Shown: in pieces, positions 1 through 21,500 of the stretch | Layout: every line of letters begins with the position of its first letter | How positions within the stretch are numbered: the stretch's first letter is position 1 | NCBI GenBank assembly: GCA_029261065.1 | Contig: JAJDCB010000011.1 | Span: forward strand, 47,168 to 111,167 | DNA from: Candidatus Omnitrophota bacterium | GTDB lineage: Bacteria > Omnitrophota > Gorgyraeia > Zapsychrales > Zapsychraceae | Direction: 5' to 3' | Length of the DNA: 64,000 nucleotides | Made by a program: the position numbers and the translations under genes | The notes under the pieces: model-generated | The model's input: the letters and a program-made list of their open reading frames with translations, nothing else | What the model was told of the DNA's origin: nothing | The model's database searches: none

Positions 1-560
1 TTGATGCCAAGGTTTACATTGATCAATAATGCGACTCAATCTTTAAGAGGAGCCACTCGATCCTTTGTGCATGGGAATTACAATCAATCCATCATCCAAT
101 TTACCAAAGCCATCAAACAATCGGATAACAAGTGGGATGAGCCTTATTTGGGACGAGGAAAGGTCTATTTGGAGCTTAAAGAATATAAATTTGCTGAAAT
201 GGATTTTCGAATGGCTTTATCTTTAGGAAGTGATAATCGTGAAGCGAAAATGTATTTAGGGCGTTCATTATACTTTCAAGGACAGTTTCATGCCGCGGAT
301 CAAATATTTTCACACCTAACGGTAGCTCAATTTGATCGTCGAGATTTTTATCTCTGGCAAGCAGCTCTGTTTATTCAATTAGAACAATGGAGACGTGCCC
401 TATTTGTTTTAAATGCCTATATTGATTTTATTCCTTCTCATCCGACGGCCCTGATATATCGTATCTATACACATACAAAACTCGATCAACTAGATTTAGC
501 GCATGAAGACATAAGAAGGCTTTTTGCCATTGGGTATGCTCATGATAAGTTTGATTTTAT
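1..560 (+). other. TPR-like repeat region (domain of giant ORF)
   Basis: Translation shows 34-residue helical repeats with the W/LG/Y...A...F...A pattern (e.g. ...GRGKVYLELKEYKFAEMDFRMALSLGSDNREAKMYLGRSLYFQGQFHAADQIF...). Confidence 0.5.
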
Positions 561-3500
561 TAAGGAGGAAATGGTAATTACTAATTCTGCAACATATGAT
601 CAAATAATTAACGCTTGGAGAACAGGAATAGAACAAATTAAAGCTTGGCAAGCAAACCTTGAAGCTTTAAATGAACGTGAAGAGAAAATTATACATCAAG
701 TTTATGATGCACAAATTTCAATCGTCAATCACAATAAGCGACAACGGGTTATTTTAAAATTACCGAAAACAAGTTCTTTCGAATATGTTCAGTCGCTTCA
801 TGAGGGCAATACGGTAGTTAAAATCCATGATAAATCTACCGATCAAGTGTTATTAGTTGGATACTACCAAAGTAACAGTAGCAAAGTCTTGTATATTCAT
901 GATGCCAAAAATATTTATGAGATAGGTCCCGGACAAATCTATGACGCAGTAAATTCTCCCATTCCCTATCATACACAAAACAATATTCCTGTAATAAACT
1001 TAGTGGATCTTCTGAAAGTTGATTCTTACGTTGACTCTTTTTTAAGTGTTGGTGTAAGTTCAAGTCCACTAACCATAGATATCCTAAGATTAGAAAAAAG
1101 ACGAACTAGTTTTACTGACGAAGAACGTGCTTATTTACATTCAGTCATTGAATATGCCTATGACAGTAAGCTGTTTTCTTATTCTAATTTAGCCCGTATA
1201 TCCAGTATTGTCGCCCCAAGGCCAATCCATAGAACAACTGTGGAAAGATTTATAGAGAATCCAAATAATAATTTTAACAAATCAGTTTTATTAACAATAG
1301 CTTACATTGTCGAAGACCTTCTAGACGATAACTTGGCTATAAGTTATCTCATTCAAAAGAATCTGGAAAGAGTAGAAAAAGTAGACGAAGTAGAAAGATT
1401 AAGAAAAGATACGAAGTATGCGCTTGATCAAAACATTTTTGAAATTTCTGAGATGGTAACAATCGTAAAGATGGAACCAACAGCCATCATTAATTTCTCT
1501 ACAGGTTTTCATGTAATGCCCACCCCTGATAACTTAGATGCCCTATGGGTTATTATGCAAGACATTAAACGTAGAGATATTCATGATTACGAGACAGGGG
1601 ATCTTCAAGCGCAATTAAGTCAGTTAATGGAAGATGGCCAAACAACAGAGCTCAGTTTAGCTCGTTTATCACAACACTTTGAAGATTCTTTTACGATGCC
1701 TCAATTGAGACGTTTTATGTACGGTCATGAGCCAGCGGCAAAAACCATTAGAGGTTTAATGTTGGTAGTAGGTCTATACAACGCACGCTCACAAATGGAA
1801 CAAGAAATTAAGACGGTACAAACGCAAGAACTTAAAAGGAGGCTGGAGCTTGTTAATCAAATGATCTTTGTAAGCCAAACGAATGAATCAATTATTCAAT
1901 TAAATGAGGAACAAAAGCAATTCGTTGTTTTAGTGTTAGGTTCGAGGGCTGTACTTGTTATGAATGAAGAAGAACAATTAGAGAAGGAAGAAAGAATACA
2001 AATAATTATAAAAACTAGAAAATACCAAAAATTAGAAAAAGAGCGTTTATTGACACAAGCACGAACAGAGATAAGAAATCAAAGAAGATTAAACAGAGAG
2101 CAGAAGAAAGAAGGAATGAGACGAGCCAAAGTACAGCGTAAAGAAAAGCGTAAGCCCAAAGTAGGAAAACATAAATCAAAAACGATAAAACCAAAAAAAG
2201 AAAGAAAAAATTCAAAAGCCTCAGTTAAAGGCAAACCAAAAACAAAACAAAAATTGCCTATAGCCCTACAGAAGTTGAAAGATGCTGAGAGCTTAATGGA
2301 AGAAGCAAGTACGATACCTTGGAGTTCTTCGCCACTCAAGCAACCACCTGATGCTCAATTGCAAGATATGGATAGAGTTTATATTTTGGTTATGACAATT
2401 TTAGGTATGTTCATATATAACTTTGCAGGACAGCTAAATATTGTTTTTGTAACGATTGCATTAACATTTGCAATAGGTGCCGTTTACCAGCTTAATAAAT
2501 ATAGAAAAATAAAATTAGCCAATATTGAAAGAATTTATTCACTCTCTAAAAATAATTATACATTTAAGAATCTTGTCGATGAAATATTATTTTCTGCTCA
2601 GTTAATTGGTGTTTTGGAAGTTTTTATTAGTGTAACAGGTGCGTTTCGTTTTGTTCTGGAGTTTCTCAAAGTTGGTTTTAATTTTTGGACTGGTATTTTA
2701 ATTCTGCTTACGACTCTTGGGATACCTCTATATGTCATTGCGTTTAAAGCGTTAAAAGATTCTCATGAGGATGACACGATTGATTTTGTAGAAAGATTAG
2801 TTCAAAAAACTAAAATAAAAGAAGAGGAAGTCGTTTCAGAAAATCAGGGTGTAAATAAGAAAGTTATGCCTTTAAAATCTGGAAAGGGATCGCAGGGACC
2901 TCCAGAAGTTAAAGATCGACCTAAGAAAACCTTACCTAGTGCTTCCCTTAATGCTCCTCGCGGACCAAGAAAAGCCAGCCAGAAAAATAGAATAACAACA
3001 CAAAACAACAAACCTACCCATTCTATTTCGTCATTTTTAGAACGATACAACAACGAAATCCTTCAAGGGCGTCTAAAAATTATAGTGGTACCAAGTAAAT
3101 TAAATAATCTAATCATCGACACGCCATTATATATCCAAGGAGATAATAGGGCTTCTCGTATGTTAATTACGTATATTCAAAAAGTCATTAGTCTAAACAA
3201 AGGTAATAAGAAAAAACAAGAAATAATCTTAACTGTCATCGGCACACGCAATGGCGTAAGACTTACAGGAACAATCAGCCATTCGAGATTACTTAATAAA
3301 AGGGAGTTAATCTCCATTAGGCGATGGCAAAAGGAAATGTTTTTTGATCTATTCGACGCTTTAAAGGGAGAGATCCGTGTCTCGATGCACAACAATCAAA
3401 GTATTTTAGTTTTAAACATTCCTTCTAAATCTTCTTCACCGCTTCAGATAAGTTATATATCAAGAAATATTGGAATAAACAAAAACAGATCCAGTGTCTT

Positions 3501-6500
3501 GGTGAGAGACAAAGGATCTGTTCTTATATATTCTAATAGCGCAAAGTTATTTCAGGAAGGTAAAGAAGATGCCCGACATGACGCCAATTTGGCCAACCCA
3601 GAAGATAAACATCGAACGAGTTATTCTGGATTCAAATTGAGCGAGTTTGCGTTCATATCTTTCCTCCAGATACTCAAGCAGATTTTCTCTAGATCGATGT
3701 TCAATTCTATCAAGCATGTTAACCAACGCCTCAGCTCCTTCTTCCGTGAGTTTATCACGAAGGATTTTTGGAATGTTTATCACAATTCCCATACCGTTCC
3801 CCTTTCTTTAAACAGATTATTACGAATGGATCTTATCGGGGAAACAACGTATTGGGGGATCCGGTATGTTTCAAATATAACATTGATCAATATATCCGTC
3901 AAGATTTTTGCCTCAAGCCCTGCCCGAAGAATAAAGGCTGAAGGAGGAATTTTTGGAGTTCTTAATAGGGTTAGTCGGATTCGAGAATTTTTTGAGAATA
4001 GAACGGTAAGGCGTGATCCGCATGACAAAATTGTTTTAATGACAGAATACATAGAAGCAGCGTTTGAGAAGTTTAAATCAACGGAAAGTTGGGCGCGGTC
4101 AAATCATGTTATAGCCTTGGCGGTGGAGTTAGAGAAGATTGAAGTTTTTATGCATTCTTTTGTTTCGCGGAATAAGAGATATGTTCAGCAACTGGACTAC
4201 GTTGTATTACTTAATATTGTTGGTATTACGCAACAGTGGTTACAGATGATAGAAGGTCCTTCTGATACAGATGAGACAAATATGATTCATCATGAAAAGA
4301 AAAAAGAGCGAATTCAAGAAGCTCTAGAAACAAGAAAACGAGTTGAGGATTCATTAAAACGTTCAAACAAACCTAATCGAAGGCATAGCTCATCATCGGC
4401 ATTAATAACAAGGGAACTTAGCCTTAGTAAAGCATTGATTAAGAAGGTCAGAAGGACAGGCGAACTTGTAGTATCTGTCTGGGGATCGGCAAGAGTAAAG
4501 ACGCCGAGTTTAACTCAGCCATTAAAAGATGCTGAAGACTTTGCGAGTCAGATCGGAGAAAAGATAGAAATTAAAACAACAGTAGTGACAGGTGGAGGCC
4601 CTGCGATTATGGAAGCGGGAAATAAGGGGCAGAGATTGGCCGATCCTAAGTTCAAAGGTCATTCTATTGGGTTATCTATTGCGTTACCTTTTGAGCAGTA
4701 TTCAAATACATTTTTAGATAAGAACATAACTTTTAAATATTTCTTCACCAGGATTTTGACCTTTTTGCAGTTAAGTCATGTCTTTACAGCTTTTAAGGGA
4801 GGAGCGGGGACCCTGCATGAAGTGTTTGAAATTTTGGTCTTAAAAGATAAAGGAGATACGGATGCCGAGGTTATCTTAGTGGACAAATCATTTTTTGGAT
4901 TGATTCAGGTCATATTAGAGAAGATGAAGGACCTTGGTTATGTCCGTCATATTTCTGATGAGCTTATTTATATTGTTGATTCGGCGAACGATGCTTCAGA
5001 GTATTTAAGAAAACAACGTAATAAATTATTGGCCCAAATTGAACTAAGAAGAAAGCAAAAAGTTGATTTTAAGATAACGGATATTATTAAAGACTTTAGA
5101 CAAGCAAAGAAGGATTTTGCTCATGTTAAAAAATCGGTAGCGATTGTTGGATCAAGTTACATGACAAAAGAAAATCATCTATACACTTATTTACGATTGT
5201 TAGGATTAACACAAGGGTTATTTAAGGAAGGTTATACCCTTCTTACAAGAGGCGGTTTAATTACGCAATCAGCTCATGAGGTCCTTGAGAAGCAGGGTTT
5301 AAGTGAAGAAAGATTAATCCGTGTCGGATTAAACGGAGGAGATAAGTTAAGAGATGAATTTATCGATGGTATATCGCCCAAAAAATTCAAAGATATTAGA
5401 TTCTCTCAACGTTTTAGCCGTGATGCGGCGATGGAACTGGCGGCTAAAGAAGGCATCATCTTCTTCCCAGGCGGTGTTGGCACGATGTTAATCTTTAGTC
5501 GAATGTTAAGTTTACTGCAGACAGAAAAGTTAGATAAAGACAAACAACACAAACGACCATTAATCCTCGTTGATTCAGAGTTCTGGAAACCGGTTGATCA
5601 ATGGGTTCAACAGGCGATTGATCAAGGGCTTATCAGCAAGGTGGTCAGAAGTTATTACACCATCATTGATCTTGATGAGAATGTAACAGAGAAAGTTACC
5701 GGTATTCTTCGTTCAAATCAGATTGCTTCAAGTCCTATAATTAATGAAAATGACAAATCTGATGGTGAAGATTCTAATATTCACTCTTCATCGCCAATAA
5801 CAGATTTTACTTTGGATGAGAACATCGGTTTACACCTCCAAAGTGAAATTCAGTTGAGTTCACCTATGAAGAAACTTAAGAAATTGGCCAAAGAGAAGCA
5901 TCTAAGTCTTGAATTTTTTATGCGTATCGAGAAATTAGCACCCACGCACAGAGAAGATTTAAAAGCTTTATTAATTGATACCATTTTTCCAAATGTTATT
6001 GATAACCTATCATTACTGCAACAGCATTTTTATGATAAGGGGATGCGTTTGAGAGCGTTAAAAACATTCATTAGGAGTCTTAAAAAGGTTCAAAAAATTC
6101 TAAGTCAATATTATCGAAAGAATTCAAGAAACAAAGTTTTTCAGAACATTTATAAATTTGTGGATGGAGATGTTTTTCATAATCTTTTTCAAGCTCTTAT
6201 TAAATATTTTAGTAAGAAAAGTAATGAGTTTTTAGAGCAGGAAGATGTTCAAGAAAATATTAAGGAGCTTCATAAGTATATTCTAGACGTCATCCATATC
6301 ATTAGTACTTTAGATTGGTTGCATGATGCACCTCAAGAAGGACTTATAAAAGATGTTCATTTAGGAGTAAACATAGATTGGGCAAAGATGATAATTGGTT
6401 TTGATCCTTATTACGTAGAGAGTCTAATGGAATCATTAAATGAAAGAAGTATTTTAGATGAATTTAATCATTCTCATGGAAAAATATCAAATCTTAAAAA

Positions 6501-9500
6501 TTTATATTTTGAGAGTATTACTTTTGTTTTTATGGAAGTTTTATTAAATGCGATTTTTTATGGCAGCGATAACATAATTATTAAAACACGTTTGGAACGA
6601 AATAGGAAATATGTGGTTATTGAAATAGAAAATAAAGGTCGTTTAGGTGTTGATGAAGATAAATTATTCAATTTTTATCGTAGCTTTGCTGGTAAGAAAC
6701 TTGATATCGCGGTAACGGGTGATGGTTTTGGTTTAGCTTTGTCACGTCTCTTTGTGGAGTTACATGGGGGGACAATTAGAATTGAAGATTATAGAAGTTC
6801 ATCAGAAGAAAATTGGGTGCGCACAACAATAAGGTTGCCGAATGTTTCTAGTTTAGATGCTAATAGAAGAAAACAAAAGTTATTTAGAGAAAAGAGATCT
6901 TCAATGTCCCCAATGATAGAGCTAATAGACAAAGAAAAATTTAACTGGGATCATTTGAATCCTTTGTCTCAAGCTCCGCCGAAAGCTAATGCGTCATTTA
7001 AAAAGACCGCCACCTCCAGTCCACTTCAAACCCTCACAATTAATACAATTGACGTTAGTTTAAACCCAGTCCTTGACCCAACAGTATTGTCCTGGATGTT
7101 AGTGTTAGTACCTTTAGCTATTTTAGTTTTCCTTTTCCATTTTGCAGCCCATTATGTATCAAATGATCATCGACTTACCCAACTTAGAGAATGGTTTGCT
7201 GCTCAAACACGGGATCAGTTGTTACAAAAAGTTTATAATTCCGAAATGGGATTTTTTACAAGTCCATATTATCAAATAGCGAAAGCTGAGCGAAAGATTG
7301 CAAAGAGAATTGTTGCCCTCATAAAAAATCCAGAAGACTTAATGCAAGAGCCAAAGGTATTTAGCGATGTTGCCATTAAGACGCAATTGATAACGAGATT
7401 AAGACTCCTTTCCTTACCGATTGATTTTGTTATGGCTGTCTTGTCGGAGGTTAGTCAAAAAGATAAAAATTTAATGGTTCAAGAAAAGGCAAAAGAAGTA
7501 TTAAGCCGCCTAAGAGCTATCGGTGAGCAGTGGAGCAAGTTTACTCAAGCCATCTCTATAAGAGACAAAGATAATGATAATGAAGGGGCGTTAAAATTAT
7601 TTGAAGAAATTGAAGAAATGTTGCCAGATTGGGAGGCTGTTCATTTTGAAAAAGGAGTTACCTTTGAGGAGATGCATCGGTATGAACAAGCAGAACAGTC
7701 TTTTCAAGAAGCGGCAACATTAAGTAATAGTTCAAGAGCTTATACGAGATTGGGTCAGTTGCGTAATGATCGAAGAGATTATGAGGGCGCACAAACAGCC
7801 TATCGACAAAGTATTACAGCGTATAGAGGAGATTCGCAAACGTTACACTATTATCTCGGAGATGTTCAGGCGGAGTTAGAAAATTATGACGAAGCGATTC
7901 AAAATCTCAACGTAACAATCAAAGCCAAATCTCGGAGAAGCGATGAGATCAAGATGCGAAGGGATGCTCACCTAAGACTTGGTGAGATTTATGTTTATAA
8001 AGGAAATAGAGATAAGGCCTTACATAATATAGAAACGGCCCTTCATACAACAAAATTACAGGTAGCCATTGATTTATTGCCGTCTCTAAAGAAGTATATT
8101 TTTAATCGACCTGAAGGGCAGGAATTTTTTGAAATGTTGCAAGATTCAAAAATGTTTTCAGAAGAAAAAGAATCGATTCTAAAAATTATTGATCGGATAC
8201 AAAGCAACACAACAATTCAAAAACAATATCCAGAGCTTATGGTTAAGTTGGATGTTGAATTTAGGAGATGGGGCATGATGCCCAACATCAGTGAAGCGAC
8301 TAAGAAATCACTAAGGCTTAATGCAGAGTCTGTTGGAGCAAGAGTTGATCGTTTTGACTTTACTGTAGAGATGCTAAATATTTATACTTCTAAAGATTAC
8401 CAGATTTCAGATCGTTATTTTGTTGTAGAGACAAAATTAGTTCATTTGTATTTTATTCAAAGACAGACAGCGCGATCGTCACAAGAGTTATTATTTTTTG
8501 TCCAACGGGTATCTGATAAATCAATTCAATTAATTATCCCAGAGGATAATACAGTTATCACTTTACACGGTGATCAGCTTTATTGGCAAGGTTTACCTAT
8601 TAATACAATAACGCCACCCACTATATATCTGGCGGATCTCCAGCATTTAAGCCCGAGTGTGAAGAAATTTATTTTAGTTTCCAGCCCGATGCCCCCCCCA
8701 TCAGAATCAAGGCAAGAAGGAATTCCGAATTTTCAGGTTACTCGTGTATTTGTACTTATTCATGCTCTTTTATTTATCGTTTCACTATTGGTTAATTTAT
8801 CTTATAACGGTTTATTTATAGTATTAAGCGTTCTTGGAGGATTAATCGTTGATCGAAGTTATGGCGGACGAACGATAGAGCAAGTCTTTAGTGGGACAAT
8901 GATCTATGATCGACGGCTATATCAGTATATCCGTCACCCCATTTATCTTGGGTATAGTAATATATTTATAAGTTTATACTTGGCCACAGATTTATTTGCG
9001 ATAGAAATGTTTTCTTTAGTGTTATTGGTAGTGTTTTTACTAGGAATTATAGACGAAGATATCGCATTGAAAAATAAATTTAGTGCAATGGCAGAAACAA
9101 CCGATAATCCACAGGGGATTGCGGAAGTTGCCGCATACTTTGAATACAAAAATAAAACGCCTATTATTCTACCTAAAATTAGAAATATTAAATCTATGGT
9201 GATTGATATTATTTATGGAGAAGGATCATCGCCATTCAAAGGAATAAAAACCATCTATAAAGTCTGGAATATTCTTCATTTAACGTCGTTGTTGCTATTT
9301 AAATTATCCTTAAAAGGGATTTGGAAATTTATACGGGCTGCTTATTATTCGCCATTTAGATTCATTAGTTTTGTTGCAACGTTGGATAAACGAAGTTACA
9401 CACTTTTAAAATACATTGATCGTGACGGAGATGTGAACCTAAATCAGGTTTTAATTGATCTAGATAAAAATTTAATTTTTGGAATATACGAAGTAGTTGA

Positions 9501-12500
9501 CCTAAATATGTTTGAAGGCGTAATGAAAGTGCTTGGAGTTGATTCGAAACATATAAGAATTAAATCCAATGGGGCTCCATGGATGTTGCATCTTTTTGAT
9601 ACGTATCAAATGATGGGTTGGGGTGGCTATAAAAACGGAGTTCGAATTGAAAACTTAGATATGACACAATTTAGCTTTGTTTTTCATACACTATTTATGC
9701 CTAATGCACCGTACAAGTATATTTTGAACAAAAGAAGTCAACAGAAGATAATACAAAAAAGAAATCACACGCATTTAGATTCGAGACGAAAGGTAGTTGT
9801 TGTTGGGTCCGTAAATAGAGAGAATGTTGATTTTCTTGTCGATATTTATAATCAATTTGAACCCACTCAAAGGCCGTTATTGATTTTTGCGATGAGGAAC
9901 GATAATCAAATGACGAAAGAAAATCTTTCCTTTAGAGATGATATAAGCGTTGCCACACGTAGATCCGTTGATCCCTATTTAACAGCACAAAACATACCAT
10001 TTAAAGACTTAGATGTTGTTATTTTAACGACCCAAGGTGAATTGAAAGATTTATATGCAATCGCAGATGTAAGTATTATAGGACCAGATCAAAATATGAA
10101 TGAGTCTATGACAAATGAAGTCTTTACATTCCATTTTGGTAACAAAAATGAGTGGATCAATAACGCGTTAATTTTAAAAATAGCCAAAAAGTTTAATGCC
10201 GTCAAACAAATCCGTGTACCAACATTTTTTATAGACTTACAAGACGCGTTAAATAATCCAACTCAAAAGCAAGGAGCTCTTCGTAAATCTAATGAATACT
10301 TCGATAACATTATCATACCAACAGAACAGTTGCTTGCCAGATTATATATTGCCAACGCCCTATTAGGAGACGTCAAGACTGGCTCAAGTCCTCTTTACCT
10401 AATAGAAAGTGACAGGCACCAATTAAGCTCGCCCATGAGCGGGAATCGAAATAAAAGGGTGCCTGTCACGGATTATTTTTTTATTAGAAATTATTGGAAA
10501 TTTCGTCGTAAGGCACAAGTGAATGACGTGCATGTTGAAGATAGCATTGATGCAGAATTTACGACAGATAAAGAAGGAGAGGTTAAAGAAGACCCTTCAT
10601 CAGCTCTTAAAGAGCAAGGAGAAGGATATGGTTATAAACAAATTGTATTAAATATGACATCAATTTCAAGCCCATTAAATCCATCAGATATAAAGAAAGA
10701 GGGTATTGAAAGGGTTGTTCAACAATTAAACCAAAATGGTTTTAGCCAAAGACAATCTGAAATTATCGCGGATGAACTTGTCAGTAGCCTTAAGTGGCTT
10801 AAACGATGGTTTGCTAATTTTGAGGAGCTTAGTAAAAAACAACAAAATAAAATTTTAAAAGACGCCCTTTGGTATAGCAAAAATTTAAAATCTTATAAGA
10901 CGTATAAACATATTAGAAAAATTAAATTTTCTAGTCATTTGCTTAGCTTTATTATTATGTTAGTTGCGTTAAGAGGGATAGTTTTTGACGAAGACTTCTT
11001 GGTTTTAAATTGGATGACGTTAGTCCTTAGTATCGTATCAATTTTATTAACTATCGGGTATGAGATTTGGGATGTTATAACGGATCAAGGGTATTATTTA
11101 GAGAAAACAAACTCGGTAAAAATCAGAATTAAAGCTACGGATAATGAATCAAAATTAAGAGAGCGTGTCGCTCATGAGTTAGCGCATGATTTTCTTAAGA
11201 AAGAAATCGTTGTTGAAGCCTTTGCTCGTTTACGTCTTCTAGCAGGAGGACATCAACATATGAATCCTGATGTTGTCAAAGTCGTCGAGGAGTTTCCTGG
11301 TGATCTCAAAAAGGTTCAAGAAGTTCTTAAAGCCAGAGCCAAAAAACCAACAGGCATTTACTCTTATATTATTCTTAAATTCATCTATCCTTCCATATGG
11401 GAATATGATTACGCTCATCAACTTGCACAAGTCATCTATCATCTCTCCCAATACAACGATAAACGAGCCTTCCAGACGGTATTTCTATTAAATAAAAAGT
11501 ATTCTCTAGAAAAAGCATTAAAAATGAGTGCTGAGTCGAGTTCTGCAATGAGTGTGAAAGCCAATGATAAGAAGGTAAGAAAAATAACAAGTGACAGGCA
11601 CCAATTAAGCTCGCCCATGAGCGGGAATCGAAATAAAAGGGTGCCTGTCACGGATTATTTAGTTAATAGTTTACAGTTTAATTCATTAATAAGCTTAGAC
11701 GGCTTTAGAAGCAATTTAGAGTTAACCTCCAGCGAGAGAATAGGTTCTCGAGAATTGACCCTATTTATTCCTGTTTTTGCCAATTTAGCAATGAGACGAT
11801 CAGAGGAAGCTGGACGAGCGAGGCGGACATCAAAGCCTTTTTCACGGAGTTTGAGTGATATTTCTCTCGGTATATTTTCATCACAAATAATACGCATTAT
11901 TCAATTTTTTAATAGTTTACCTAAACGCTACGGATTCGCCGCGTTTCATAAGGTCACTGGCAAAGGAAAGGGCCGCTTTAATGTGCTGTTTGGTCAATTG
12001 AGGATAGTAACGGGTAAAAATCTCCGATGGGCTAACACCCGCTTGGAGAAGTTCAAGTACCAGGTAAACCATTATGCGAGTACCTTTAAAGCAGGGTTTA
12101 CCGTGGCAGATTTTTGGATTGATAGTTATATAATTTTTATAATTATTCATAAAAAGAAGTTCCAGCGCTTGATTAATATATTTAAAAGTAACATAGATAA
12201 TTCTTTAGGTCAAGTTGCGGTTGCGGAAAGTCGTGGACTTGGCTTTAGGCGTTCTTTAGTAAGCGTGAGCGAAGACATCATTATCCCGCAAGCAAGCTCA
12301 TCTCCGCTTAGCAGTAAGAAAGATCTATATAAATATAAATTTAATCAGATTAACTGGAAATCGGAGCGTCGTCGCGTGAAAGAGGCCCTTCGCCAGGTTA
12401 AAAACGGCAGACGCTTTAGCAATCGCATTACAGCATATGTGGATGGAGAACAAATATGGGGTAGGTCGGGACATAATGATATTTATGACTGGATGCCAGA

Positions 12501-15500
12501 TTATAAACGTGTCGCCATGTTCCGACCTGACCCTAGTTCTTTGATAGCTAGCACTCAAGAAAAGTCAGAAAATTTATCTCAAGAAATTATGATAATAAAA
12601 AGTGACAGGCACCAATTAAGCTCGTCAATGAGCGGGGATCGGCCTGCCGCGGATTATTTCCAAGCCTTCATCGTCGAACACACACAAGCCGCTACAGACA
12701 GGATTGAGTTTGCGCGTCAGCAGTTCTTAAAAATACAACAGATGACAAATCAGCAATTATTTGATGGCGCTATAAAAATTATTCGTCGAGGGATGGTGAA
12801 ATATGATCAAGACTTGGAAGATGTTATAAGAGCTTATTCTGAAAGAACAAAGGGGATAGGTTTAAATTTGGCTCGAGAAGCTTTGGTTAATGATGCGGCG
12901 GCGTTTATGGATGCTGTAATGAGTTATCAAATTTTGATAAGTGATCAACAACAAGAGGCCACTCTTGATCGTATCTTTGTGCGCGCCCAATCAGATGGGT
13001 TCTTAGATCTTCACATAGATAACCGTTTGACTTTGTACATGGACCATAATTTAAGGGAAGAAATTCTTAGTAATTTCTCTAAAGGGGTAGAGGAAGCAAA
13101 AATAAGGTTAACTCTTAATAAGCTTTTTAATATTTATATTGTTCGATTACTCCAATTGGTTTCTCTAAGAATTTGGGATGATCCGATTAATAATTTAATG
13201 GCATTACAAACATTAGTTGATGATTTAAATCATTTTACCAGTCAGGGGCAGAAACGACAGGATACGTTATTCGTCACACAGGCCACAACGCTTTTAGCTT
13301 TAGCTGTTTCAGCTACTGTTAATGCTAATGATGAAGAGCAATATTATCGTAAATTTGCGGATTTTATTAATAAGACATATCTTCTTAATGAGAATCAGCA
13401 GTTAGAACTTATGCTTGCCCTTGTTAAATTTAACGCTCAACACTTAGCGAGCTTGATTCGCTTTAAATCACGTGTAGCCGATATGTTTAGAAAAGAAAAT
13501 CGAATGGATTTCTATCTTGCTGTGCACGGAGTGATTGTTTTATTACAACACTATAAAAATTTAAAACAACAACATCAAACCGTAACCGTTGAAAAGATCA
13601 CAGAAGCCGTTCAAATGATATTTGAGACGGACAAGGAACCCTTTTTAGGATTAAGAGAGCCGGAAACATTAAGTGCTTTATTCACGCAGATTTTGGTGAA
13701 AAATAACCATATTGTCACAGACTACTACTTTTATTTAATTCACGACAATGCGAATGCATTGTTAAAGGACATGCAAGATTTTAATGTAGAAGGTAAAAAA
13801 TATGCACCGCTGTACAACGAAGTCTTGTCTCCCGACATTTTATTTGAGGCCATGATTCGCAACAAATTTCTAAAAAAGGATGAAAGCCTAAGAACCCATA
13901 ATTTCATTTTTGAGTCACTATTAGAATCCACACAAGATCCATTAAAAGCACAAGCTTTTCACAATATATTCAGCATTGAGACATGGGGGCTGGGTGTTTT
14001 TGGTAGAGAGCTTATTGATTTAGATAGGACATATGAGGTGTTAAGGACGTTTGGTTCAATTTCCAGCTCGCCTATAAATTATAACCCACCAGAGGCCATT
14101 ATAGTATCCCATAACCAAGGATTCCGTTTTGACAAAAGTTACGCGCGTATTATTATTGATGGATATCGTAAACTATCTAAGAAATCGGGTGTACTTTTAA
14201 AGAAGTCTTTGCGGAGTAGTGAAACAATGGATGTGTACGAAGGTATTTATCCTGTTGATTATTGGTCATTTAGATTTGATGACGTCTCGATAATTAGCAA
14301 TTACAGGCCGTTTCGTGCTTATCGTATTGAGCAAGAAGAGCGTGTGAGTACGACTTTTATGGCTTCACAAGAAGTTGTTTTAGCTACATTTGGTTGTTCG
14401 TCCTGTGCTCCTGTTTCATATTTTGGTGTTATACCAGAGGCCGGTGAACAAATAATCATGCAAGGACATATTATGGCTGGAATAACTGACCGCATTGGAG
14501 TTAATCAATTTCTTAGGATTAAAGAGGATGTTGATTTTTTAAGGGGGTTAGGTGTTCGTCATATTGAGGTGATTGCTTCGATTGATTATAGAGCTGCTTA
14601 TTGGCGAGAGAATCTTCAACAGTCTATTTGGACTCCAGATTTTTTTACCTTTCCTTCTGATCCAGAAGAAATTATTGGGGAACTAGGAGACGATGTAAAA
14701 GTAACAATCTTGACAACACCAAATAGGAGATTCATTAGAAGAGATATGTATGCAACAAAGTATGGTGTGGCTATTGTTCCTGCAATTGACCCGGAGGCTT
14801 TTCATGTGTTTGATTGGCAGGGGTCGTTGGAAGGGCAATCTTCTCCGACAAAGGCGTCTAGCCCAATGAGGATTAATCCTTTTGATACGCAAACGGAAAT
14901 TAATTTGTTTGAGTTAGCTCCAGATACACAATTTGAAATCGAGATATCTGATCTTAGATTAAGTAGCAATGGTGTCAATCTTGGATACCAATTGGGTCGA
15001 TTTATTCAACTGTTGAAACTTTCAAGAGAATTACAAGTGAGAGCCGAGAAGGGTGGGTTGAATGAAATGGTTGCTTCTTTAACTAAAGAAGAAAATTCTG
15101 AGAGTTTGATAAGTAGTTTCTTTAGTTCCGATGAAATTAAACATTCTCATCAAAAAGAAAGTGAATCCAACGAATATGTATTTGTAATGGAGATTTATAA
15201 TTTATTGCTTCAGTTCCTTTCAGCCAAGTTTAAAAAAGATCATCTTATGTGGTTACCTAGTGCTGCAGAGCAGGTACGTCTGAGATGGGAAACAGAGGTC
15301 GTAAGAAACAATTTTATTTCGGAGTATATTTCCAAACAAACAATTATAAAAATGATATCTATGGGTATTGAAGGGATGGAGCGGGTTTTCAATCCGGAAT
15401 CGGAAATTAAAAATTTGATTGGGTTGTTAACAGGATCCGGATTCAATATTAAAAGGACCAATGGTTATGGATGGGCGAAAGATCGTAGGCTATATCTCCC

Positions 15501-18500
15501 TCATTTAGAAGGAGAGCCTTATTATTATTTACAAGAATCTTTACTTGTAGCACAGATGCAAGAATATGCATTGGAGGGTGGATCAGTGGTTACAGGAGTC
15601 GCGCAAACACCATTTATTATCTTCTCGAATTCCATTCGTGAAGGTAAGATTTCTATGATCAAAAATTATTTAATCAAACATGTTCCTTCGTATAAAGATC
15701 TTAAGGTTTATACTTTTCCAAGTGGATGGATCACTTTATCGTATGAGAAAGAAAAGTTTTTGATTGCCAACACGCATATTGATACGGTCATTGGATTTAT
15801 TTCTAAAGAAGTAACGGAGCAAGACAGAAACATTCTACTCATTGACCCACTTTATCAAGCCGAAGTTTCCAATCACAGTGAGTATCAGCGATTCTTATCA
15901 GAACAAAAAGTAATCACACACACCATTGCCCTAACAGAAATACAATATAATCCTGCGAATTTTGGTGTTACACCACAAAGACAACTGGTTTTTAATTATA
16001 GCCCCGAAACCATACAAGGATTACAGTTAAAGAAAAATATGCACATGATGATTAAGGATCCAGAAGAAGCCATTGTTCATGTAGCCTCCCATCAGGGCTG
16101 CCTGGGTTGTTTAATGAATCTTGTTCCAAAAAGTAAGGAAAGGGAGGTTCGTATTATACCAACTATAATGATGATGGATCAAGGAAGTAGTCCAATGAAT
16201 AAAGTAGAACGATTCCATGCACTCTTCGAGCTTTTTAACGAGCAGTTAATGAATCTCGGTATTGATGGGGCACGAGGAAGTTTTCAAGATATGTTAAAAA
16301 TTATTGTGGAGCTGGATTCAGATGATGGTAATGGTGAGGTCTTTTTACAAAGGATTAAAGATAGTCTGGAAAATCATAAATCAATTACCATAGACAACTT
16401 AATATTTATGGATTATCACGAAACCATTCAGGCCATGCAAAGTACTTTACGTGAACTGGGCCATGTTATATCAACTTTTGCTAGTATCGGAGGAGATGTT
16501 GAGGAGTACATCCGTGATTATATGGATTTCAAAGAAGAAGTATTAATGATGGCTGACAATGAAAAGCCTATGGGTCAAACAACGCAACGTATTGCACAAG
16601 CTAATGAAACTTCGATTCAAGCATTAAACCACATGATGCAATACCAAAAAGAATTGATACGGCATTATCCTGCTAAATTAACAGGAGTCTTAATCTACGA
16701 TGAAACAGGCAAGCTTGGACTTATGACAGATCTTAACAAAACACGAGATCATCTCCTACATAATCCTGATGTCGTTGTTACATTCAGGTATACAAAACCC
16801 ATGTTTGATGGTGAAGGTGTTGCTGGTGCAAATCAGGATAAACTGAAACAGTCGATCATCGATGAGGTTCTTGAAGCGACATTTAATACGGGTGCGATCT
16901 ATGTCCATCGGTTAACACCTGAGCAATTTAATGATCCAAAAAATATCGGTCTTCGTATTGTGCTAAAAGAGGTAGAACATTTTGTTGAATCCCAACTGCG
17001 CTTAGAAACAGTGGTTCATTCACTATCCGATGCCTTTTCTAAATATGAAGAAAAGTTTATTGTTAATCAACCTATTCGAAGAGTAATAGGTCTAATCGAA
17101 CGATCAGAAATAGAGTTAAATAATGGAAACATTCAAAGAGCCAAAACAACCCTTAGCGATGCCATTACCATATTAAATTTAATAATAAATTATAGTGGTC
17201 TCGTTTCATCAACCGATATAGCTTATCAAACTCTTGTCATGACCGAGAGTGTAGATCCAATTAAACGGGCAAAAGAACTTCTGGAAATTATCGAAAATCG
17301 TTTACAAAATATAGAACTAAACCCTGAAGTGTATCTCGACCTGGCTGAACGCAGAAAACAACTTGCTCGTGAATCAGGTAGGTATGAAAAGTTCGACAGA
17401 TTATTACAGCTTGTAGGACCGATAAAGGTCAATGAGATGTTTTCAAAACATTTAGGTGAACTCAGCATAGCAAATAATGTAAGTGACCACTACCCATGGT
17501 ATTTCGATGTCAGATTATCCATTTTCCCAACGTTAGATATACCAGGTGTGCCAATTTCACTAATAGATGTAGATACCAATCAAATCATCGCAGAAGAAGT
17601 AATTCATTCTAGTTTAACCTACCTAGGATTTTCACTATCATTAGAAGAAGAGAGCACATCACTACAAATGGAAAAAGCAACATTTAAAGACATCATTCCT
17701 CATTCATATCGCCTTGAAGTTAGAAGTTCGTCCTCAATGCATGACAATCAAAATCAATTCGTGCCTGTCACTGATTATTACAATGATGGATCTGTCAATA
17801 GGTTGTTTGAAATATGGACCAAAGGAGCAAAGAGCATCAACGAGCTTATTTTTGAGGCGAGAAAATTAAATTTTACGGCAATTTTATATCAAGAGGGTAT
17901 TCTTAAATCAATAAAAGGAAATAAATACCATGATATAGATCCTCCTTATGCAAGGTATTTTGATAGCCACTTATTAATTAATCTGTTTGAAAATATTCGT
18001 CAGCATACCAATGACTACGCTCTTTATCTATGGCGTGAAAGTGATGAAGGGTTTGAAATTATTTTATTTGATTATGGGCCTGGTATCTTAAATCCTCTTG
18101 GAGAGCCCGTTTCAGACTTAGGAAAAATATTTGATGATTACTCATACAGTAAAGGTGGAATAGGATTCAAAGGCAAAAATGCGGGAGGAGGAGGTGGTTG
18201 GGGAACTCATTCATTTGCTGTTTTTTCTTATTTAACAAGACTAATTTCAGTAAACGCCGGATATGTTCGTGTCGCTGAAAAAGAGGACCCGGGCTTCAAG
18301 AAACTTAATCATGATATTGCTGTCAAGCAGGTGAATATACCTACGGAATCCCTTAATATTCGGCCTTCTCATTCTGGCGTGATTCTTCATGCATTTAATC
18401 CATTTAAAAAGTCCTATCTCGGAACATTTGCGGATGTATCTAACAATTCTATATTAGGAACAATTCAGACGACGAATGCCGTAACAGAACAAAGAGGGCC

Positions 18501-21500
18501 TTGGCAATTGCCAGTTGCTGCGGGATGGAACACTTTATCTATAGGCGATCAAGTTGAGCTGATCTATTTTGTTTCCAGTGAAGGGGAGAAACTCGTTATG
18601 ACCAGCGGGCGTGTCATTGATGCTTTCCAAGATGACTCCTTAATAGAAATGGACAAAGGAAGGACACTGAATAGTCACGATGTAAGGCGAGTGATAACTA
18701 CACGCGGAGAAGAGAAGACAGAGAATTGGCAACAAGTAAGAGGCGCGTTTTTTAGATTGGGTGTAAGCGACGGCTTGACGGTTCAAATCGAATATAGAGT
18801 GGACCGTATTATTAGTGAGCGAAAATCGGTAAGCGGGATTATCCAAGAGATTCCAACCAAAGAAAATACAGGGAACTTCGTTATTAAAATTCCTAAGAAA
18901 GTAAAATCATTTACCTTAAGCCTATCTGAATTAAAAGAGTTTAACCTAATTCAAAAGGCAAAAGCAAAAAGGGTCAGTTCCCCATTTAGCAAAACACTAT
19001 TAATAGATGGCACTGATCCTCAAGAAATATTATTTAATCAATGGTTTGGAGAGAATTCCGTGCTTAAAGGAACTTTCCTCCAGCAAATCGTAACAGAGGT
19101 TTTGATTGAAGAAAATAATCCGTATGCTTTAGATGTAAAAATTATTACGAAGGAAGGAGAGATTAAAATTTTTGTTAGACGTCCTTGGCCTGCTTTTTTA
19201 AGACCGGTATCGATAACATGGCTTTCGGTTGAATTTAATTCAGGTGACAATATACGTAAGCGCCATTCTAGAGATGTGTTAATGTTGATGCTTGACTGGC
19301 TTAAAATTAGAGGATTTAAGAAAGTTATACTCGATTTAAATGAGGGAAAAGCAGTGGGTTTCTTTAGGGCAACACTACCTAGTTGGGCGAAAGACGAAGG
19401 TGATATTACTTATCGTATTGGCGGTGTTGTTATGCATAAAGCTTTTATTTATTTGGAAAATATGGAATTTAGGCGGCAAGAACAACCAAGGGGCAATTCT
19501 CAAGGCTCCGACACCATCTCTACTTCATCACCCCTTTATCAGGAGGATGTTCTAATTCTTGAGAAAGGAACAGATCTTCATGCACAGATGATGAGCTCGC
19601 CTAATCCTTTGCAGTGGATTTATCAAGAATTTGTTGCCCCAAGCATCATTAAGCCGGTTCTTTTAAGGGTAACCGCGCTTGGTTTAGATCAGGCTTTATT
19701 TGTTGAAAAGGAGTTCGATTCTAACAAGGCTCTATTGATTAGTCAGTTAAAAACTATGATTCAAACAGGGCCTGTCTCGTTATTGACTGTAGGAAATGTA
19801 GGCGCAATAAGTTATTCTGATGAACTCATTGGTGTGGATCTGACTTATCAAGACAATGAATATCATTTAGAATTTGAGATTATCAAAGGAAGTCGATTGA
19901 CAGAGCTTGGGGTCAAGTCTCGACTTACCGACACCTTTTACTCAAGCAGCTCAATTCGTTCATCTGTAGTCAATTCGAGACTTGACCACGAAATTTCTGG
20001 GGCATTCTTGCCGTTAACTTTATTTCAGAATATTGACGAATCAATCGCTGAGGATAATCATCTGGCATTGCTTAAAAGAACGGTATCTGTAGATGGAAAT
20101 GATCATGAAGTTGTTGTTGATATCCAGGGCCGTTATTTGAGAGTGGATTCTTTGATCATTTTGACGAGACAACTTGTAGTGTCGGAAGATTCAAAAATTT
20201 ATCAGAGTAACGATGCCGTATTGTATACCAATGGCCCGGTTGAGTTTTTATCATTTGTCGTTCCAATCATTGTATCTATGTTCGACCATAGGGATCTGAT
20301 TAAAGACAAGACGGTATTTGAGTATGGTTCAGGTCAAGGTTTGCTTTTACTGGTGGCTCTAGGCCTTGGGGCAAAGCGGGTTGTTGGTATAGATTCTCGA
20401 CGTCATGACCATGAAAAAGCAAAGGAATTATTAGATAATTCGTTTTATGAAGGGCGTATATTTGAAAATTTAACAACCTTTTTTGATCATACACAACTCT
20501 TTGATGGGAAATATATTCTTATTAATGACAATATTAATGAATGGTTTAAATATGATCAGGACAGTCGCAATCAAATTCTCGGCTCAGATGAGCTAGTCTA
20601 TATTGTTAACATGGGACATTCTTATGACATTCATGAACAAATTTTATCAAATCAATTTGGGGAACACAATTTGAGACAAAAATTATCGATCCTTGGTGGA
20701 TTTTCAAATGATGATTATTACAGAGGCTTCGATAGGTTCGGCCATAAGAACACAGCAAATCAATTACGGAGAGGGAGAAGTCAATGGCATGTGGAAGAAG
20801 TAAATTACAATTTTGGAATTAGCTATACAGCCTTAGTTGTCCGGCCGAAAGGATCCTTGCCGGCTTTTGATTCTGGGGATGATGTGAGTGGGATAATAAG
20901 GGGCAGATTTTTTACTAAAGCTCGTTTGAAAGTAAAGCCAGCAAATGTCAGATTAGATCCCGGCACAAATAGTTCACCCTTAGCGTTAAGATTTATTGAT
21001 GAATATAAACGTTTAATACAGGACATAGGTGTGACAAGGGACGAGGCAAGATTTTACGGCACAGGTGAAGTGAGGGCATATGAGGTGGGTCAATGGTATG
21101 AACATTACGCGGCCGTGATGGAAAACGAAAATCAATTTGTTAGCGTGCAGGAGAAAACCAGAGACTTCCTATTTTATATTGCCGCTATAGAGCAAACGGA
21201 TTATGAGCACATGAGTAATATGACGATAGAAGGGAATAATAAAAAGTTAAAATTTTACAATCGGCTAGAACGCACCAGAAAATTATTTAATATTTCAGCT
21301 CACTTAAATATTTTGAATGATCAAGAATTGGCAGTTCTAACTGAAACGATTCGTGGCTATTGGTTGAAAAAAGGTTATGAGAAGAGGTTTGCCTTTAATA
21401 TTCTTGCAGGGCTTGTATACGATTACTATATCTATTCAGCAGAACGTTTTGAACGATTTGCGAAAAATGTGATCATTATCCTGGATGGCGGTGATCAAAA

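What the first reader, a model, noticed from the sequence alone, without database searches (positions are those of the whole stretch)
4460..5710. Tandem LOG/SLOG-type Rossmann domains embedded in the megaprotein
Two adjacent domains carry the LOG-family GGGxGxMxA / PGGxGTxxE signatures. LOG-fold enzymes cleave nucleotide N-glycosidic bonds, and SLOG relatives occur in nucleotide-signal-based conflict systems. Finding a tandem pair fused to kinase-like ATPases and methyltransferases inside a giant protein is unusual.
Basis: partly seen in the sequence, partly recalled or inferred. Interest (0 to 1): 0.55.

Follow-up and report, generated by a model that had tools for sequence, protein, structure and literature searches.

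The report
Paired LOG domains in giant protein
The flagged stretch encodes a two-domain LOG-type nucleotide-cleaving module, one copy apparently active and one degenerate, which recurs in the giant membrane proteins of Omnitrophota bacteria and is already annotated there, so it is real but not a new kind of thing.

Summary
Window 4399-5727 (+ strand) encodes two adjacent LOG-family domains. Each passes Pfam PF03641 on its own (61.5 and 50.3 bits, cut-off 27), and the closest solved structures are type-II LOGs.

The whole 64-kb window is one stop-free frame of at least 21,333 codons, with about 46 hydrophobic segments and HEAT, TPR, GHKL-ATPase and methyltransferase domains. The nearest carriers of the same LOG pair are partial giant proteins from Candidatus Omnitrophota, which NCBI already names "LOG family protein".

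- **Copy 1:** keeps the catalytic Arg and Glu and the phosphate-binding Thr, but has replaced both adenine-contacting residues (Lys to Ile, Asp to His).
- **Copy 2:** has lost the catalytic Glu (now Ile) and the glycine loop.

The same active-plus-degenerate pairing is found in about 90 stand-alone Patescibacteria proteins and about 30 Omnitrophota proteins. The pair is modelled as one compact unit (pTM 0.87).

I read it as a single-active-site nucleoside-monophosphate N-glycosidase module, built as a pseudo-dimer in one chain. There is no support for a SLOG conflict-system role.

In passing: an SSP[LIMF] motif is 15-fold enriched in the giant protein and brackets the LOG pair in several Omnitrophota giants. 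It may mark module boundaries.

The parts
4399..4455 (+). Helix preceding copy 1 (aa 1467-1485, ALITRELSLSKALIKKVRR). It occupies the position of the extra N-terminal alpha-1 helix of type-II LOGs.
   Evidence: AF2 model helix H2-19, pLDDT about 89-94. Position mapped. The role of the alpha-1 helix in type-II LOGs comes from PMC5379747.
4465..5013 (+). LOG copy 1 (aa 1489-1671), probably catalytic. Motifs: VWGSAR (nt 4477-4494), GGGPAIMEAGN (nt 4591-4623), FFTRI with Arg1584 (nt 4741-4755), and KGGAGTLHE with Thr1604 and Glu1607 (nt 4795-4821).
   Evidence: PF03641 at 61.5 bits alone. 5wq3 at 91.5 bits, with Arg155 and Glu178 aligned to Arg and Glu. State RITHE at the five key columns. Scores 183 bits against the copy-1 profile and 87 against the copy-2 profile.
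5017..5127 (+). Helical linker and the alpha-1-like helix of copy 2 (aa 1673-1709).
   Evidence: AF2 helices H207-219 and H226-240. It aligns with the second 'IFRIMAELVEGF' helix of stand-alone tandem proteins.
5134..5724 (+). LOG copy 2 (aa 1712-1908), a degenerate pseudo-enzyme copy. Motifs: VAIVGSSY (nt 5137-5160), TRGGLITQSAHE (nt 5245-5280), RFSRD with Arg1807 kept (nt 5410-5424), and PGGVGTMLI, where Ile1831 replaces the catalytic Glu (nt 5467-5493).
   Evidence: PF03641 at 50.3 bits alone. PDB alignments place Ile at the Glu178 position. State RDTLI. Scores 114 bits against the copy-2 profile and 81 against the copy-1 profile.
3913..3921 (+). Nearest SSP motif upstream of the LOG pair (aa 1305-1307, FASSPARR). 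Candidate boundary of the module.
5728..5736 (+). SSP motif 10 residues after the profile-matched end of copy 2 (aa 1900) and 2 residues after the last modelled helix (aa 1910-1912, IASSPIIN). Two more follow at nt 5788-5796 and 5857-5865.
   Evidence: The AF2 pLDDT drops at this point.
6520..6840 (+). GHKL (HATPase_c) domain in the same soluble stretch, about 270 aa downstream of copy 2. This adjacency is not conserved in other LOG-pair carriers.
   Evidence: PF02518, E 2.4e-9. Other carriers have different neighbours.
1..63999 (+). The host ORF: one stop-free frame of 21,333 codons that runs off both ends of the window.
   Evidence: Domain content. About 46 hydrophobic 19-residue segments.

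Best explanation
Window nt 4399-5727 encodes one two-domain module of the type-II LOG fold inside a giant, multi-pass membrane protein, most likely from a member of Candidatus Omnitrophota. Shown: both halves are LOG domains. Copy 1 keeps the catalytic Arg1584 and Glu1607, the phosphate-binding Thr1604 and the glycine loop. Copy 2 keeps Arg1807 but has Ile1831 at the catalytic Glu position and a degenerate glycine loop. The same canonical-plus-degenerate order is found in about 90 stand-alone Patescibacteria proteins and about 30 Omnitrophota and other proteins. Inferred: LOG enzymes work as dimers, and here the dead copy 2 serves as the built-in partner of copy 1. The module is then a pseudo-dimer in a single chain with one active site. 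Copy 1 would hydrolyse the N-glycosidic bond of a nucleoside 5'-monophosphate to a free base plus ribose 5-phosphate. Both adenine-contacting residues are replaced together (Lys156 to Ile, Asp177 to His, CgLOGII numbering), so the preferred base is probably not plain adenine. Within the giant protein it would be one of many independently shuffled enzyme modules, serving nucleotide and pentose salvage rather than signalling or immunity.
For: - **Family:** PF03641 is passed twice. TIGR00730 is the best NCBIfam match. The best PDB matches are type-II LOGs. The AF2 model (pLDDT 87.8) matches type-II LOG chains at TM 0.76-0.85 normalised to the target.
- **Catalytic residues:** CgLOGII Arg155 and Glu178 are the catalytic pair. 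Lys156, Thr175 and Asp177 are needed for AMP hydrolysis, and Lys156 and Asp177 form the adenine site (PMC5379747). The window states are RITHE for copy 1 and RDTLI for copy 2.
- **Constraint on copy 1:** 249 of 259 single-domain LOGs and 91 of 91 Patescibacteria copy 1 domains read RKTDE. The rare copy-1 or single-domain variants that lose Lys also lose Asp but keep Arg, Thr and Glu (RITHE in P0256, RITME, RLTNE, RETAE, RLTHE). That pattern fits a changed base pocket, not decay.
- **Copy 2 as a contrast:** it shows what relaxed constraint looks like. 89 of 91 Patescibacteria copy 2 domains lack Glu, and most Omnitrophota copy 2 domains lack Arg and/or Glu.
- **One unit:** pTM is 0.87 for the two-domain model. 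Copy-specific profiles agree in both directions. BLAST of ten Omnitrophota fragments and one unclassified MAG fragment (P0206) against the window matches only the LOG pair, always across both copies. SSP motifs bracket the pair and never lie between the two copies, although one falls at its edge in P0147, P0157 and P0136.
- **Metabolic context:** stand-alone relatives sit in a conserved ligA-gatC-gatA-(LOG pair)-lgt neighbourhood. One Omnitrophota fragment, P0396, combines the pair with PRPP-synthetase and phosphoribosyltransferase-like domains, which would use its products.
- **Host:** the long carriers are named Candidatus Omnitrophota by NCBI.
Against: - In CgLOGII, Lys156Ala abolished AMP hydrolysis and Asp177Ala nearly did. 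Copy 1 has Ile and His there, so it could be inactive.
- Both copies fall below the curated TIGR00730 cut-off (62.3 and 36.3 bits against 96.35).
- The pseudo-dimer geometry rests only on a scalar pTM. I could not superpose the model on a real LOG dimer.
- The CgLOGII dimer salt bridge Lys156-Glu181 has no obvious counterpart between the window's two copies. The pairs would be Ile with Arg and Asp with Glu. This is my reading of the alignments.
- The membrane side of the module is unresolved, because flanking charges are uninformative. If it faces outward, an NMP substrate is less obvious.
- No close orthologue exists in the collections searched, so selection on the window's own sequence cannot be measured.
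Confidence: 0.55

Rival explanations
1. Both copies are non-catalytic. The pair is a nucleotide-binding sensor or regulatory module that keeps the phosphoribose-binding scaffold and controls neighbouring parts of the giant protein, for instance the GHKL ATPase 270 aa downstream.
For: Copy 1 lacks Lys156 and Asp177, whose alanine substitutions abolished or nearly abolished activity in CgLOGII. Copy 2 is clearly dead yet well conserved as a fold. Both score below the TIGR00730 cut-off. A GHKL domain follows in the same soluble stretch.
Against: Copy 1 retains the catalytic Arg and Glu, the Thr and the Gly loop, whereas copy 2 in the same chain shows these are lost once constraint relaxes. The Lys and Asp replacements co-vary in distant relatives. 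The GHKL neighbour is not conserved with the pair in other carriers.
Confidence: 0.25
2. It is a SLOG-type component of a nucleotide-signal conflict or immunity system. It would sense or degrade a signalling nucleotide during predator-prey or phage conflict.
For: There is a weak PF18306 (SLOG cluster 4) match on copy 1 (25.1 bits). West-Roberts et al. propose that Omnitrophota giant proteins act in predation.
Against: The PF18306 match is below its cut-off. The same family is co-listed for every ordinary LOG protein found, so it is a clan cross-hit. PADLOC has no hit for either copy or the flanks. Stand-alone relatives lie among ligA, gatCA and lgt, not defence genes. No cyclase, TIR or effector partner was detected nearby in the ORF.
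Confidence: 0.05
3. It is a decaying relic: domains carried along in a fast-evolving giant ORF with no remaining function.
For: The sequence is very divergent, at most about 31-37% identity to anything found. The motifs are eroded. There are no close orthologues.
Against: The fold is confidently predicted (pLDDT 87.8). Copy 1 keeps all catalytic and phosphate-binding residues. The pair is the only part of the window that matches other Omnitrophota giant fragments, so it is the conserved part and not the decaying one.
Confidence: 0.1
4. It is an unrelated Rossmann-fold family, such as DprA/Smf, TIGR00725 or a molybdenum-cofactor carrier protein, mistaken for LOG.
For: There are low-scoring secondary hits to TIGR00725 (25 bits) and, in relatives, faint DprA hits.
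Against: LOG models win by a wide margin in Pfam, NCBIfam, PDB sequence search and fold search. The Arg that MCPs replace with Ala is present in both copies.
Confidence: 0.02

Closest known systems
Type-II (hexameric) LOG phosphoribohydrolases: CgLOGII / Cg1261 (PDB 5wq3), Streptomyces coelicolor LOG-II (5zi9), Thermus TT1465 (1wek), Neisseria YgdH (9us2)
   Same: These are the best sequence and fold matches for both copies. Shared features are the GSAR strand, the GGGPxxMEA loop, the FFxR motif, the xGGxGTxxE motif, and a helix in front of the core as in type II. Copy 1 keeps the catalytic Arg and Glu and the Thr.
   Different: Those proteins are single-domain, about 210-260 aa, and form homo-oligomers. 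Here two diverged copies are fused in one chain inside a protein of more than 21,000 aa. Copy 1 has Ile and His at the adenine-binding Lys156 and Asp177 positions, and Lys instead of the motif's Pro. Copy 2 lacks the catalytic Glu. Both score below the TIGR00730 cut-off.
Stand-alone tandem LOG-LOG proteins of Patescibacteria (about 440-470 aa; e.g. P0288 and P0297 from Candidatus Magasanikbacteria, annotated 'TIGR00730 family Rossman fold protein')
   Same: They align colinearly over both copies (E 3e-43, 73-88% coverage). They show the same division of labour: copy 1 reads RKTDE in 91 of 91, and copy 2 lacks the catalytic Glu in 89 of 91. Copy-specific profile preferences agree in both directions.
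   Different: They are free-standing genes in a ligA-gatC-gatA-(LOG pair)-lgt neighbourhood. Their copy 2 keeps Arg-Lys and mostly the Gly loop, changing only Asp-Glu to His-Gln. The window's copy 2 is far more eroded. Identity to the window is only about 30%.
LOG pairs in other Candidatus Omnitrophota giant-protein fragments (NCBI 'LOG family protein, partial': MBL8013065.1 = P0256, MBU4312050.1 = P0143, MBU2221079.1 = P0147, MCM8771387.1 = P0136, and others)
   Same: The same two-copy module is embedded in very long ORFs that fill their contigs. P0256 shares the unusual FFTRI and GGAGTxHE copy 1 and is the best match, at 31% identity over 500 aa. In five of these fragments (P0143, P0147, P0136, P0157, P0256) an SSP motif follows the pair within 18 aa.
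   Different: Nothing outside the LOG pair is detectably similar to the window. The neighbouring domains differ: methyltransferase, HTH, nucleotidyltransferase, glycosyl hydrolase or PRPP-synthetase-like instead of GHKL.
E. coli PpnN (YgdH), the (p)ppGpp-regulated nucleotide 5'-monophosphate nucleosidase (PDB 6gfl, 9hs1-3)
   Same: It has a LOG-fold catalytic core embedded among extra domains, and it is a broad purine and pyrimidine NMP nucleosidase. That is a precedent for LOG domains acting in nucleotide turnover rather than cytokinin synthesis. The match is weak (22 bits; NF038390 at 28 bits).
   Different: PpnN has one LOG domain with different flanking domains and forms tetramers. The window scores far below the PpnN model's cut-off of 450 bits.

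Membership tests
LOG family (Pfam PF03641 Lysine_decarbox) | Score above the Pfam gathering cut-off (27 bits) | tested here: met
   Copy 1 scores 61.5 bits and copy 2 scores 50.3 bits when scanned separately.
LOG family (NCBIfam TIGR00730 subfamily) | Score above the curated cut-off (96.35 bits) | tested here: not met
   It is the best NCBIfam match for both copies, but only at 62.3 and 36.3 bits. The stand-alone relative P0001 scores 242.9.
LOG family (enzymatically competent LOG, as defined on CgLOGII) | Catalytic Arg155 and Glu178 present | tested here: met
   This holds for copy 1 only (Arg1584, Glu1607). Copy 2 has Arg1807 but Ile1831 at the Glu position (residue roles from PMC5379747).
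LOG family (enzymatically competent LOG, as defined on CgLOGII) | PGGxGTxxE motif intact | tested here: inconclusive
   Copy 1 reads KGGAGTLHE, with Pro replaced by Lys and the rest intact. Copy 2 reads PGGVGTMLI, with Glu lost.
LOG family (enzymatically competent LOG, as defined on CgLOGII) | Substrate-binding Lys156 and Asp177, whose alanine mutants lose AMP hydrolysis | tested here: not met
   Copy 1 has Ile and His. Copy 2 has Asp and Leu. The two positions co-vary in rare relatives.
LOG family (type II) | LOG Rossmann-like fold with an extra N-terminal alpha-1 helix | tested here: met
   The AF2 model has pLDDT 87.8. Foldseek matches 1wek, 9us2, 5zi9 and 5wq3 at target-normalised TM 0.76-0.85. 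Helices precede each core. Whether they drive hexamer formation is unknown.
LOG family | Phosphoribohydrolase activity (NMP to base plus ribose 5-phosphate) | not testable with these tools
   This needs an enzyme assay.
Tandem LOG plus pseudo-LOG two-domain family (Patescibacteria and Omnitrophota) | Colinear match over both copies, with canonical copy 1 and copy 2 lacking the catalytic Glu | tested here: met
   Copy-specific profiles give 183 against 87 bits for copy 1 and 114 against 81 bits for copy 2.
SLOG domains of nucleotide-centred conflict systems (e.g. Pfam PF18306 SLOG cluster 4) | Score above the family cut-off (26.3 bits) | tested here: not met
   Copy 1 scores 25.1 bits when scanned alone (24.2 within the 1000-aa chunk). 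Copy 2 has no hit. Ordinary LOGs also carry this cross-hit.
SLOG domains of nucleotide-centred conflict systems | Association with known defence or conflict components | tested here: not met
   PADLOC gives no hit for either copy or for the flanks. Stand-alone relatives lie in housekeeping contexts.
Omnitrophota giant proteins (archaeovorin / multi-enzyme class of West-Roberts 2023 and the 2026 Omnitrophota preprint) | ORF of more than 10,000 aa with many transmembrane segments | tested here: met
   At least 21,333 codons without a stop. There are 46 hydrophobic 19-residue segments by a Kyte-Doolittle scan. That is a heuristic, not a topology predictor.
Omnitrophota giant proteins | Typical domain set (HEAT, TPR, HATPase_c, methyltransferase, Lysine_decarbox) | tested here: met
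   compared with the domain lists.
Omnitrophota giant proteins | SecA DEAD-like domain | tested here: inconclusive
   None was found within the window, but the ORF continues beyond both ends.
Omnitrophota giant proteins | Encoded in an Omnitrophota genome | not testable with these tools
   The source contig was not found. The assignment rests on the nearest LOG-pair carriers being Omnitrophota MAG proteins and on the shared SSP motif.

The most novel reading that the evidence does not exclude
The LOG pair is a discrete product of a polyprotein. The SSP[LIMF] motifs that bracket it, here and in other Omnitrophota giants, would be processing or module-boundary signals. The module released or delimited in this way (about aa 1306-1910) would be a single-chain LOG pseudo-dimer. 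Its remodelled base pocket (Ile and His in place of Lys and Asp) would give it a substrate other than adenine nucleotides, feeding ribose 5-phosphate and bases from prey nucleotides into the predator's salvage pathways.
Probability: 0.15. Interest if true: 0.65.

Novelty: new member of a known kind. Interest (0 to 1): 0.3.

Why it matters
By itself it matters little. LOG domains in Omnitrophota giant proteins are already named in GenBank, and the main paper on these proteins counts them without interpreting them. Three points are useful.

1. The pair behaves as one unit, with an apparently live copy and a dead copy. That gives a concrete, expressible fragment of about 450-600 aa from a protein too large to study whole.
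2. The paired change of both base-contacting residues predicts a non-adenine substrate, which can be tested.
3. The SSP[LIMF] motif that brackets the module offers candidate boundaries for cutting these giant proteins into units, both computationally and perhaps biologically. West-Roberts et al. state that such information was missing.

Tried and rejected
- **Source and orthologues:** scans of genome contigs and metagenome contigs with the 467-aa module found only distant single-domain or tandem LOGs (two loci at 37-38% identity) or nothing. The source contig and close orthologues were not recovered, so no dN/dS test was possible.
- **DNA-level duplication:** no direct repeats in nt 4300-5900, so a recent tandem duplication is rejected.
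- **Defence-system reading:** PADLOC was empty for both copies and both flanks, so this is rejected.
- **Membrane side of the module:** counting flanking Lys/Arg around the hydrophobic segments at aa 897-915 and 2361-2379 was uninformative. The side remains open.
- **Conserved neighbours of the pair:** Pfam scans of ten other carriers show different neighbours each time. BLAST of 11 carriers against the window matches only the pair. A fixed LOG-GHKL or LOG-methyltransferase unit is therefore rejected.
- **Pseudo-dimer geometry:** Only pTM 0.87 is available.
- **Literature:** no paper was found that describes tandem or pseudo-enzyme LOG pairs. Neither Omnitrophota giant-protein paper discusses LOG function or an SSP motif.
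Full report
**1. What is there**

The whole 64,000-base window is a single stop-free reading frame: + strand, frame 1, 21,333 codons, running off both ends. No other ORF of 150 aa or more exists on either strand.

The flagged stretch translates to two adjacent domains with recognisable LOG-family motifs.

- **Both halves are LOG domains.** Each half scanned alone passes Pfam PF03641 (Lysine_decarbox, the LOG family), at 61.5 and 50.3 bits against a cut-off of 27. Together they give E 2.1e-30 with two stretches.
- **NCBIfam agrees on the family but not at full strength.** The best match for both is TIGR00730, but at 62.3 and 36.3 bits they fall below its curated cut-off of 96.35.
- **The closest solved proteins are type-II LOG phosphoribohydrolases.** These are 5wq3, 5zi9, 9us2 and 1wek.
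- **The fold agrees.** An AlphaFold2 model of the 467-aa pair, built on 91 aligned sequences, has mean pLDDT 87.8 and pTM 0.87. It matches those same chains at target-normalised TM 0.76-0.85.
- **The duplication is old.** The two copies share about 26% identity and there is no DNA repeat.

Copy 1 core is nt 4465-5013 and copy 2 core is nt 5134-5724. Each is preceded by a helix at the position of the type-II alpha-1 helix.

**2. Catalytic residues**

For CgLOGII, Arg155 and Glu178 are the catalytic pair. Thr175 binds the phosphate, and Phe152, Lys156 and Asp177 form the adenine site. Alanine substitutions of Arg155, Lys156, Thr175 and Glu178 abolish AMP hydrolysis, and Asp177Ala nearly does (PMC5379747). 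The residues at these positions in the window are as follows.

| CgLOGII position | Copy 1 | Copy 2 |
|---|---|---|
| Arg155 | Arg | Arg |
| Lys156 | Ile | Asp |
| Thr175 | Thr | Thr |
| Asp177 | His | Leu |
| Glu178 | Glu | Ile |
| Glycine loop | GGGPAIMEA | RGGLITQSA |

Copy 1 therefore keeps the chemistry and the phosphoribose grip but has a rebuilt base pocket. Copy 2 is catalytically dead.

**3. The pair is a family, not an accident**

The best database hits to the 467-aa query are stand-alone proteins of 442-453 aa that cover both copies colinearly.

- **Patescibacteria.** A profile search returned about 90 such clusters, for example from Candidatus Magasanikbacteria and Moranbacteria. 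They lie in a conserved ligA-gatC-gatA-(LOG pair)-lgt neighbourhood.
- **Representative library.** A profile search of 1.8 billion representatives found that about 40 of the best 150 proteins carry two LOG domains. These include fragments of 1,000-5,552 aa.
- **Omnitrophota.** The long ones are almost all NCBI entries from Candidatus Omnitrophota MAGs. Most are partial and fill their contigs, and most are already named "LOG family protein" or "TIGR00730 family Rossman fold protein".

The key columns across these sets read as follows.

| Set | Result at the five key columns |
|---|---|
| Single-domain LOGs | RKTDE in 249 of 259 |
| Patescibacteria copy 1 | RKTDE in 91 of 91 |
| Patescibacteria copy 2 | catalytic Glu absent in 89 of 91, mostly RKTHQ |
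| Omnitrophota-type copy 2 | mostly lacks Arg and/or Glu |

Copy-specific profiles confirm that the window follows this order. Copy 1 scores 183 bits against the copy-1 profile and 87 against the copy-2 profile. Copy 2 scores 114 against the copy-2 profile and 81 against the copy-1 profile. The preference also holds in both directions between the Patescibacteria set and the other set. This points to one old duplication inherited as a unit.

The window's odd copy 1 (FFTRI, GGAGTLHE) recurs in P0256, an Omnitrophota fragment and the best overall match (31% identity over 500 aa). In the few LOG domains that lose Lys156, Asp177 is also replaced, while Arg, Thr and Glu stay: RITHE, RITME, RLTNE, RETAE, RLTHE. 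That pattern looks like a coordinated change of the base pocket and not like decay.

**4. How it most likely works**

*Shown:* this is a two-domain LOG module with one catalytically equipped copy and one degenerate copy. It is predicted to fold as one compact body, and it is conserved as a unit across unrelated host proteins.

*Inferred:* LOGs function as dimers, and in type II as trimers of dimers. The fused dead copy would supply the partner in the same chain. The module would then be self-sufficient inside a polypeptide that cannot form symmetric oligomers of one internal domain.

Copy 1 would cleave the N-glycosidic bond of a nucleoside 5'-monophosphate. The substrate is probably not plain AMP, given Ile and His at the adenine contacts.

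A salvage or metabolic role has two lines of support. The stand-alone relatives sit in housekeeping contexts. One Omnitrophota fragment combines the pair with PRPP-synthetase and phosphoribosyltransferase-like domains, which would consume ribose 5-phosphate and bases.

The main weakness is that Lys156Ala kills CgLOGII, so a purely ligand-binding role for both copies remains a serious rival. I put catalysis at a little over one half.

**5. Context and what is already known**

The host ORF has about 46 hydrophobic segments. Its detected domains are:

- TPR and HEAT repeats
- three GHKL ATPase domains
- a SAM methyltransferase
- a Glu/Leu/Phe/Val dehydrogenase
- an Mpv17/PMP22 domain
- weak PBP-like pieces

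This matches the descriptions of Omnitrophota giant proteins. West-Roberts et al. 2023 list Lysine_decarbox among the 20 most frequent domains of "archaeovorin" proteins. They state that they could not infer roles for many such domains. A 2026 preprint describes multi-enzyme giant proteins built of many shuffled Pfam modules and roughly one transmembrane helix per 370 residues.

No neighbour of the LOG pair is conserved among carriers. Only the pair itself matches between the window and other giants. It is an independently shuffled module and not part of a LOG-kinase-methyltransferase machine.

The SLOG / conflict-system idea finds no support. The PF18306 match is below its cut-off and is a clan cross-hit. 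PADLOC is empty.

**6. Seen in passing**

The tripeptide SSP occurs 59 times against 3.9 expected, an enrichment of 15-fold. The next most enriched tripeptide reaches only 3.5-fold. SSP is followed by Leu, Ile, Met, Phe or Val in 51 of 59 cases.

- **It is a protein-level motif.** It is encoded by all six Ser codons and all four Pro codons.
- **It sits between modules.** None of the 59 falls inside a Pfam-matched stretch, and its flanks are more hydrophilic than random positions.
- **It is shared.** Other Omnitrophota giant fragments are similarly enriched, for example 18 against 1.1 expected and 15 against 1.1 expected.
- **It brackets the LOG pair.** In the window and five of the nine other carriers examined, an SSP lies 0-18 residues after the end of the pair. 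In three carriers it lies 18-26 residues before the start, and in two more just inside the first residues. It never lies between the two copies.
- **It coincides with the end of the fold.** In the window, the SSP at aa 1910 sits where the model's confidence collapses.

West-Roberts et al. propose proteolytic processing of these proteins but say cleavage points are unknown. Neither paper mentions this motif. The motif is a candidate module boundary or processing or modification site. I did not test this further.

The ORF also has only 12 Cys in 21,333 residues.

**7. Verdict**

The conflict-system gloss and the claim of rarity are not. This is a new, divergent member of a known and already annotated kind. 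The modest added insight is the live-plus-dead pseudo-dimer organisation and the altered base pocket.

Noticed in passing
window 1-63999 (+ strand, frame 1): The entire 64-kb window is one stop-free reading frame of 21,333 codons that runs off both ends. It has about 46 hydrophobic transmembrane-like segments. No other ORF of 150 aa or more exists on either strand.
   Followed up: partly
59 sites across the window ORF, e.g. nt 3913-3921, 5728-5736, 5788-5796, 5857-5865: An SSP[LIMFV] motif is 15-fold enriched (59 observed, 3.9 expected). All Ser and Pro codons are used, so it is a protein-level motif. It is absent from Pfam-matched stretches and lies in hydrophilic surroundings. It is also enriched in other Omnitrophota giant-protein fragments. 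It brackets the LOG pair in six independent proteins (the window plus five fragments) without ever splitting it. It is a candidate module boundary or processing site, and it is not mentioned in the two giant-protein papers.
   Followed up: partly
window nt ~10408, 11590, 25420, 27937 (aa 3470, 3864, 8474, 9313): There are four copies of a longer conserved element, SDRHQLSSPMSG[ND]R[ND]K[RG]VPVTDY. It is built around an SSP site and is scattered thousands of residues apart.
   Followed up: no
whole window ORF: Cysteine is almost absent: 12 of 21,333 residues (0.06%). Other Omnitrophota giant-protein fragments have 0.2-1.0%.
   Followed up: no
window nt 36037-38193: A GHKL ATPase domain (nt 36037-36420) is followed by a Glu/Leu/Phe/Val dehydrogenase, with the N-terminal domain at nt 37033-37341 and the NAD(P) domain at nt 37651-38193 (E 8e-26). 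A core amino-acid dehydrogenase is embedded in the giant protein.
   Followed up: no
window nt 43714-43881: An Mpv17/PMP22 domain (PF04117, E 2.2e-10) lies just after a strong GHKL domain (nt 43066-43386). The family is best known from eukaryotic peroxisomal and mitochondrial membrane proteins.
   Followed up: no
window nt ~48030-48140 and ~49800-49940: There are weak, sub-threshold matches to the transglycosylase and transpeptidase domains of penicillin-binding proteins. If real, they would fit the cell-wall theme proposed for these proteins.
   Followed up: no
P0396 (Omnitrophota fragment, 4249 aa; not in the window): In this carrier the LOG pair shares the polypeptide with PRPP-synthetase and phosphoribosyltransferase-like domains, a PEP-utilising domain, HPr and a PrmA-like methyltransferase. 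The first two would use the products of a LOG reaction.
   Followed up: partly
L001 10001-11362; L007 6001-7332: Stand-alone tandem LOG-LOG genes of Patescibacteria sit in a conserved ligA-gatC-gatA-(LOG pair)-lgt neighbourhood. In 89 of 91 clusters the second copy lacks the catalytic Glu and carries Gln, His or Asn instead. I found no paper describing this widespread family.
   Followed up: partly
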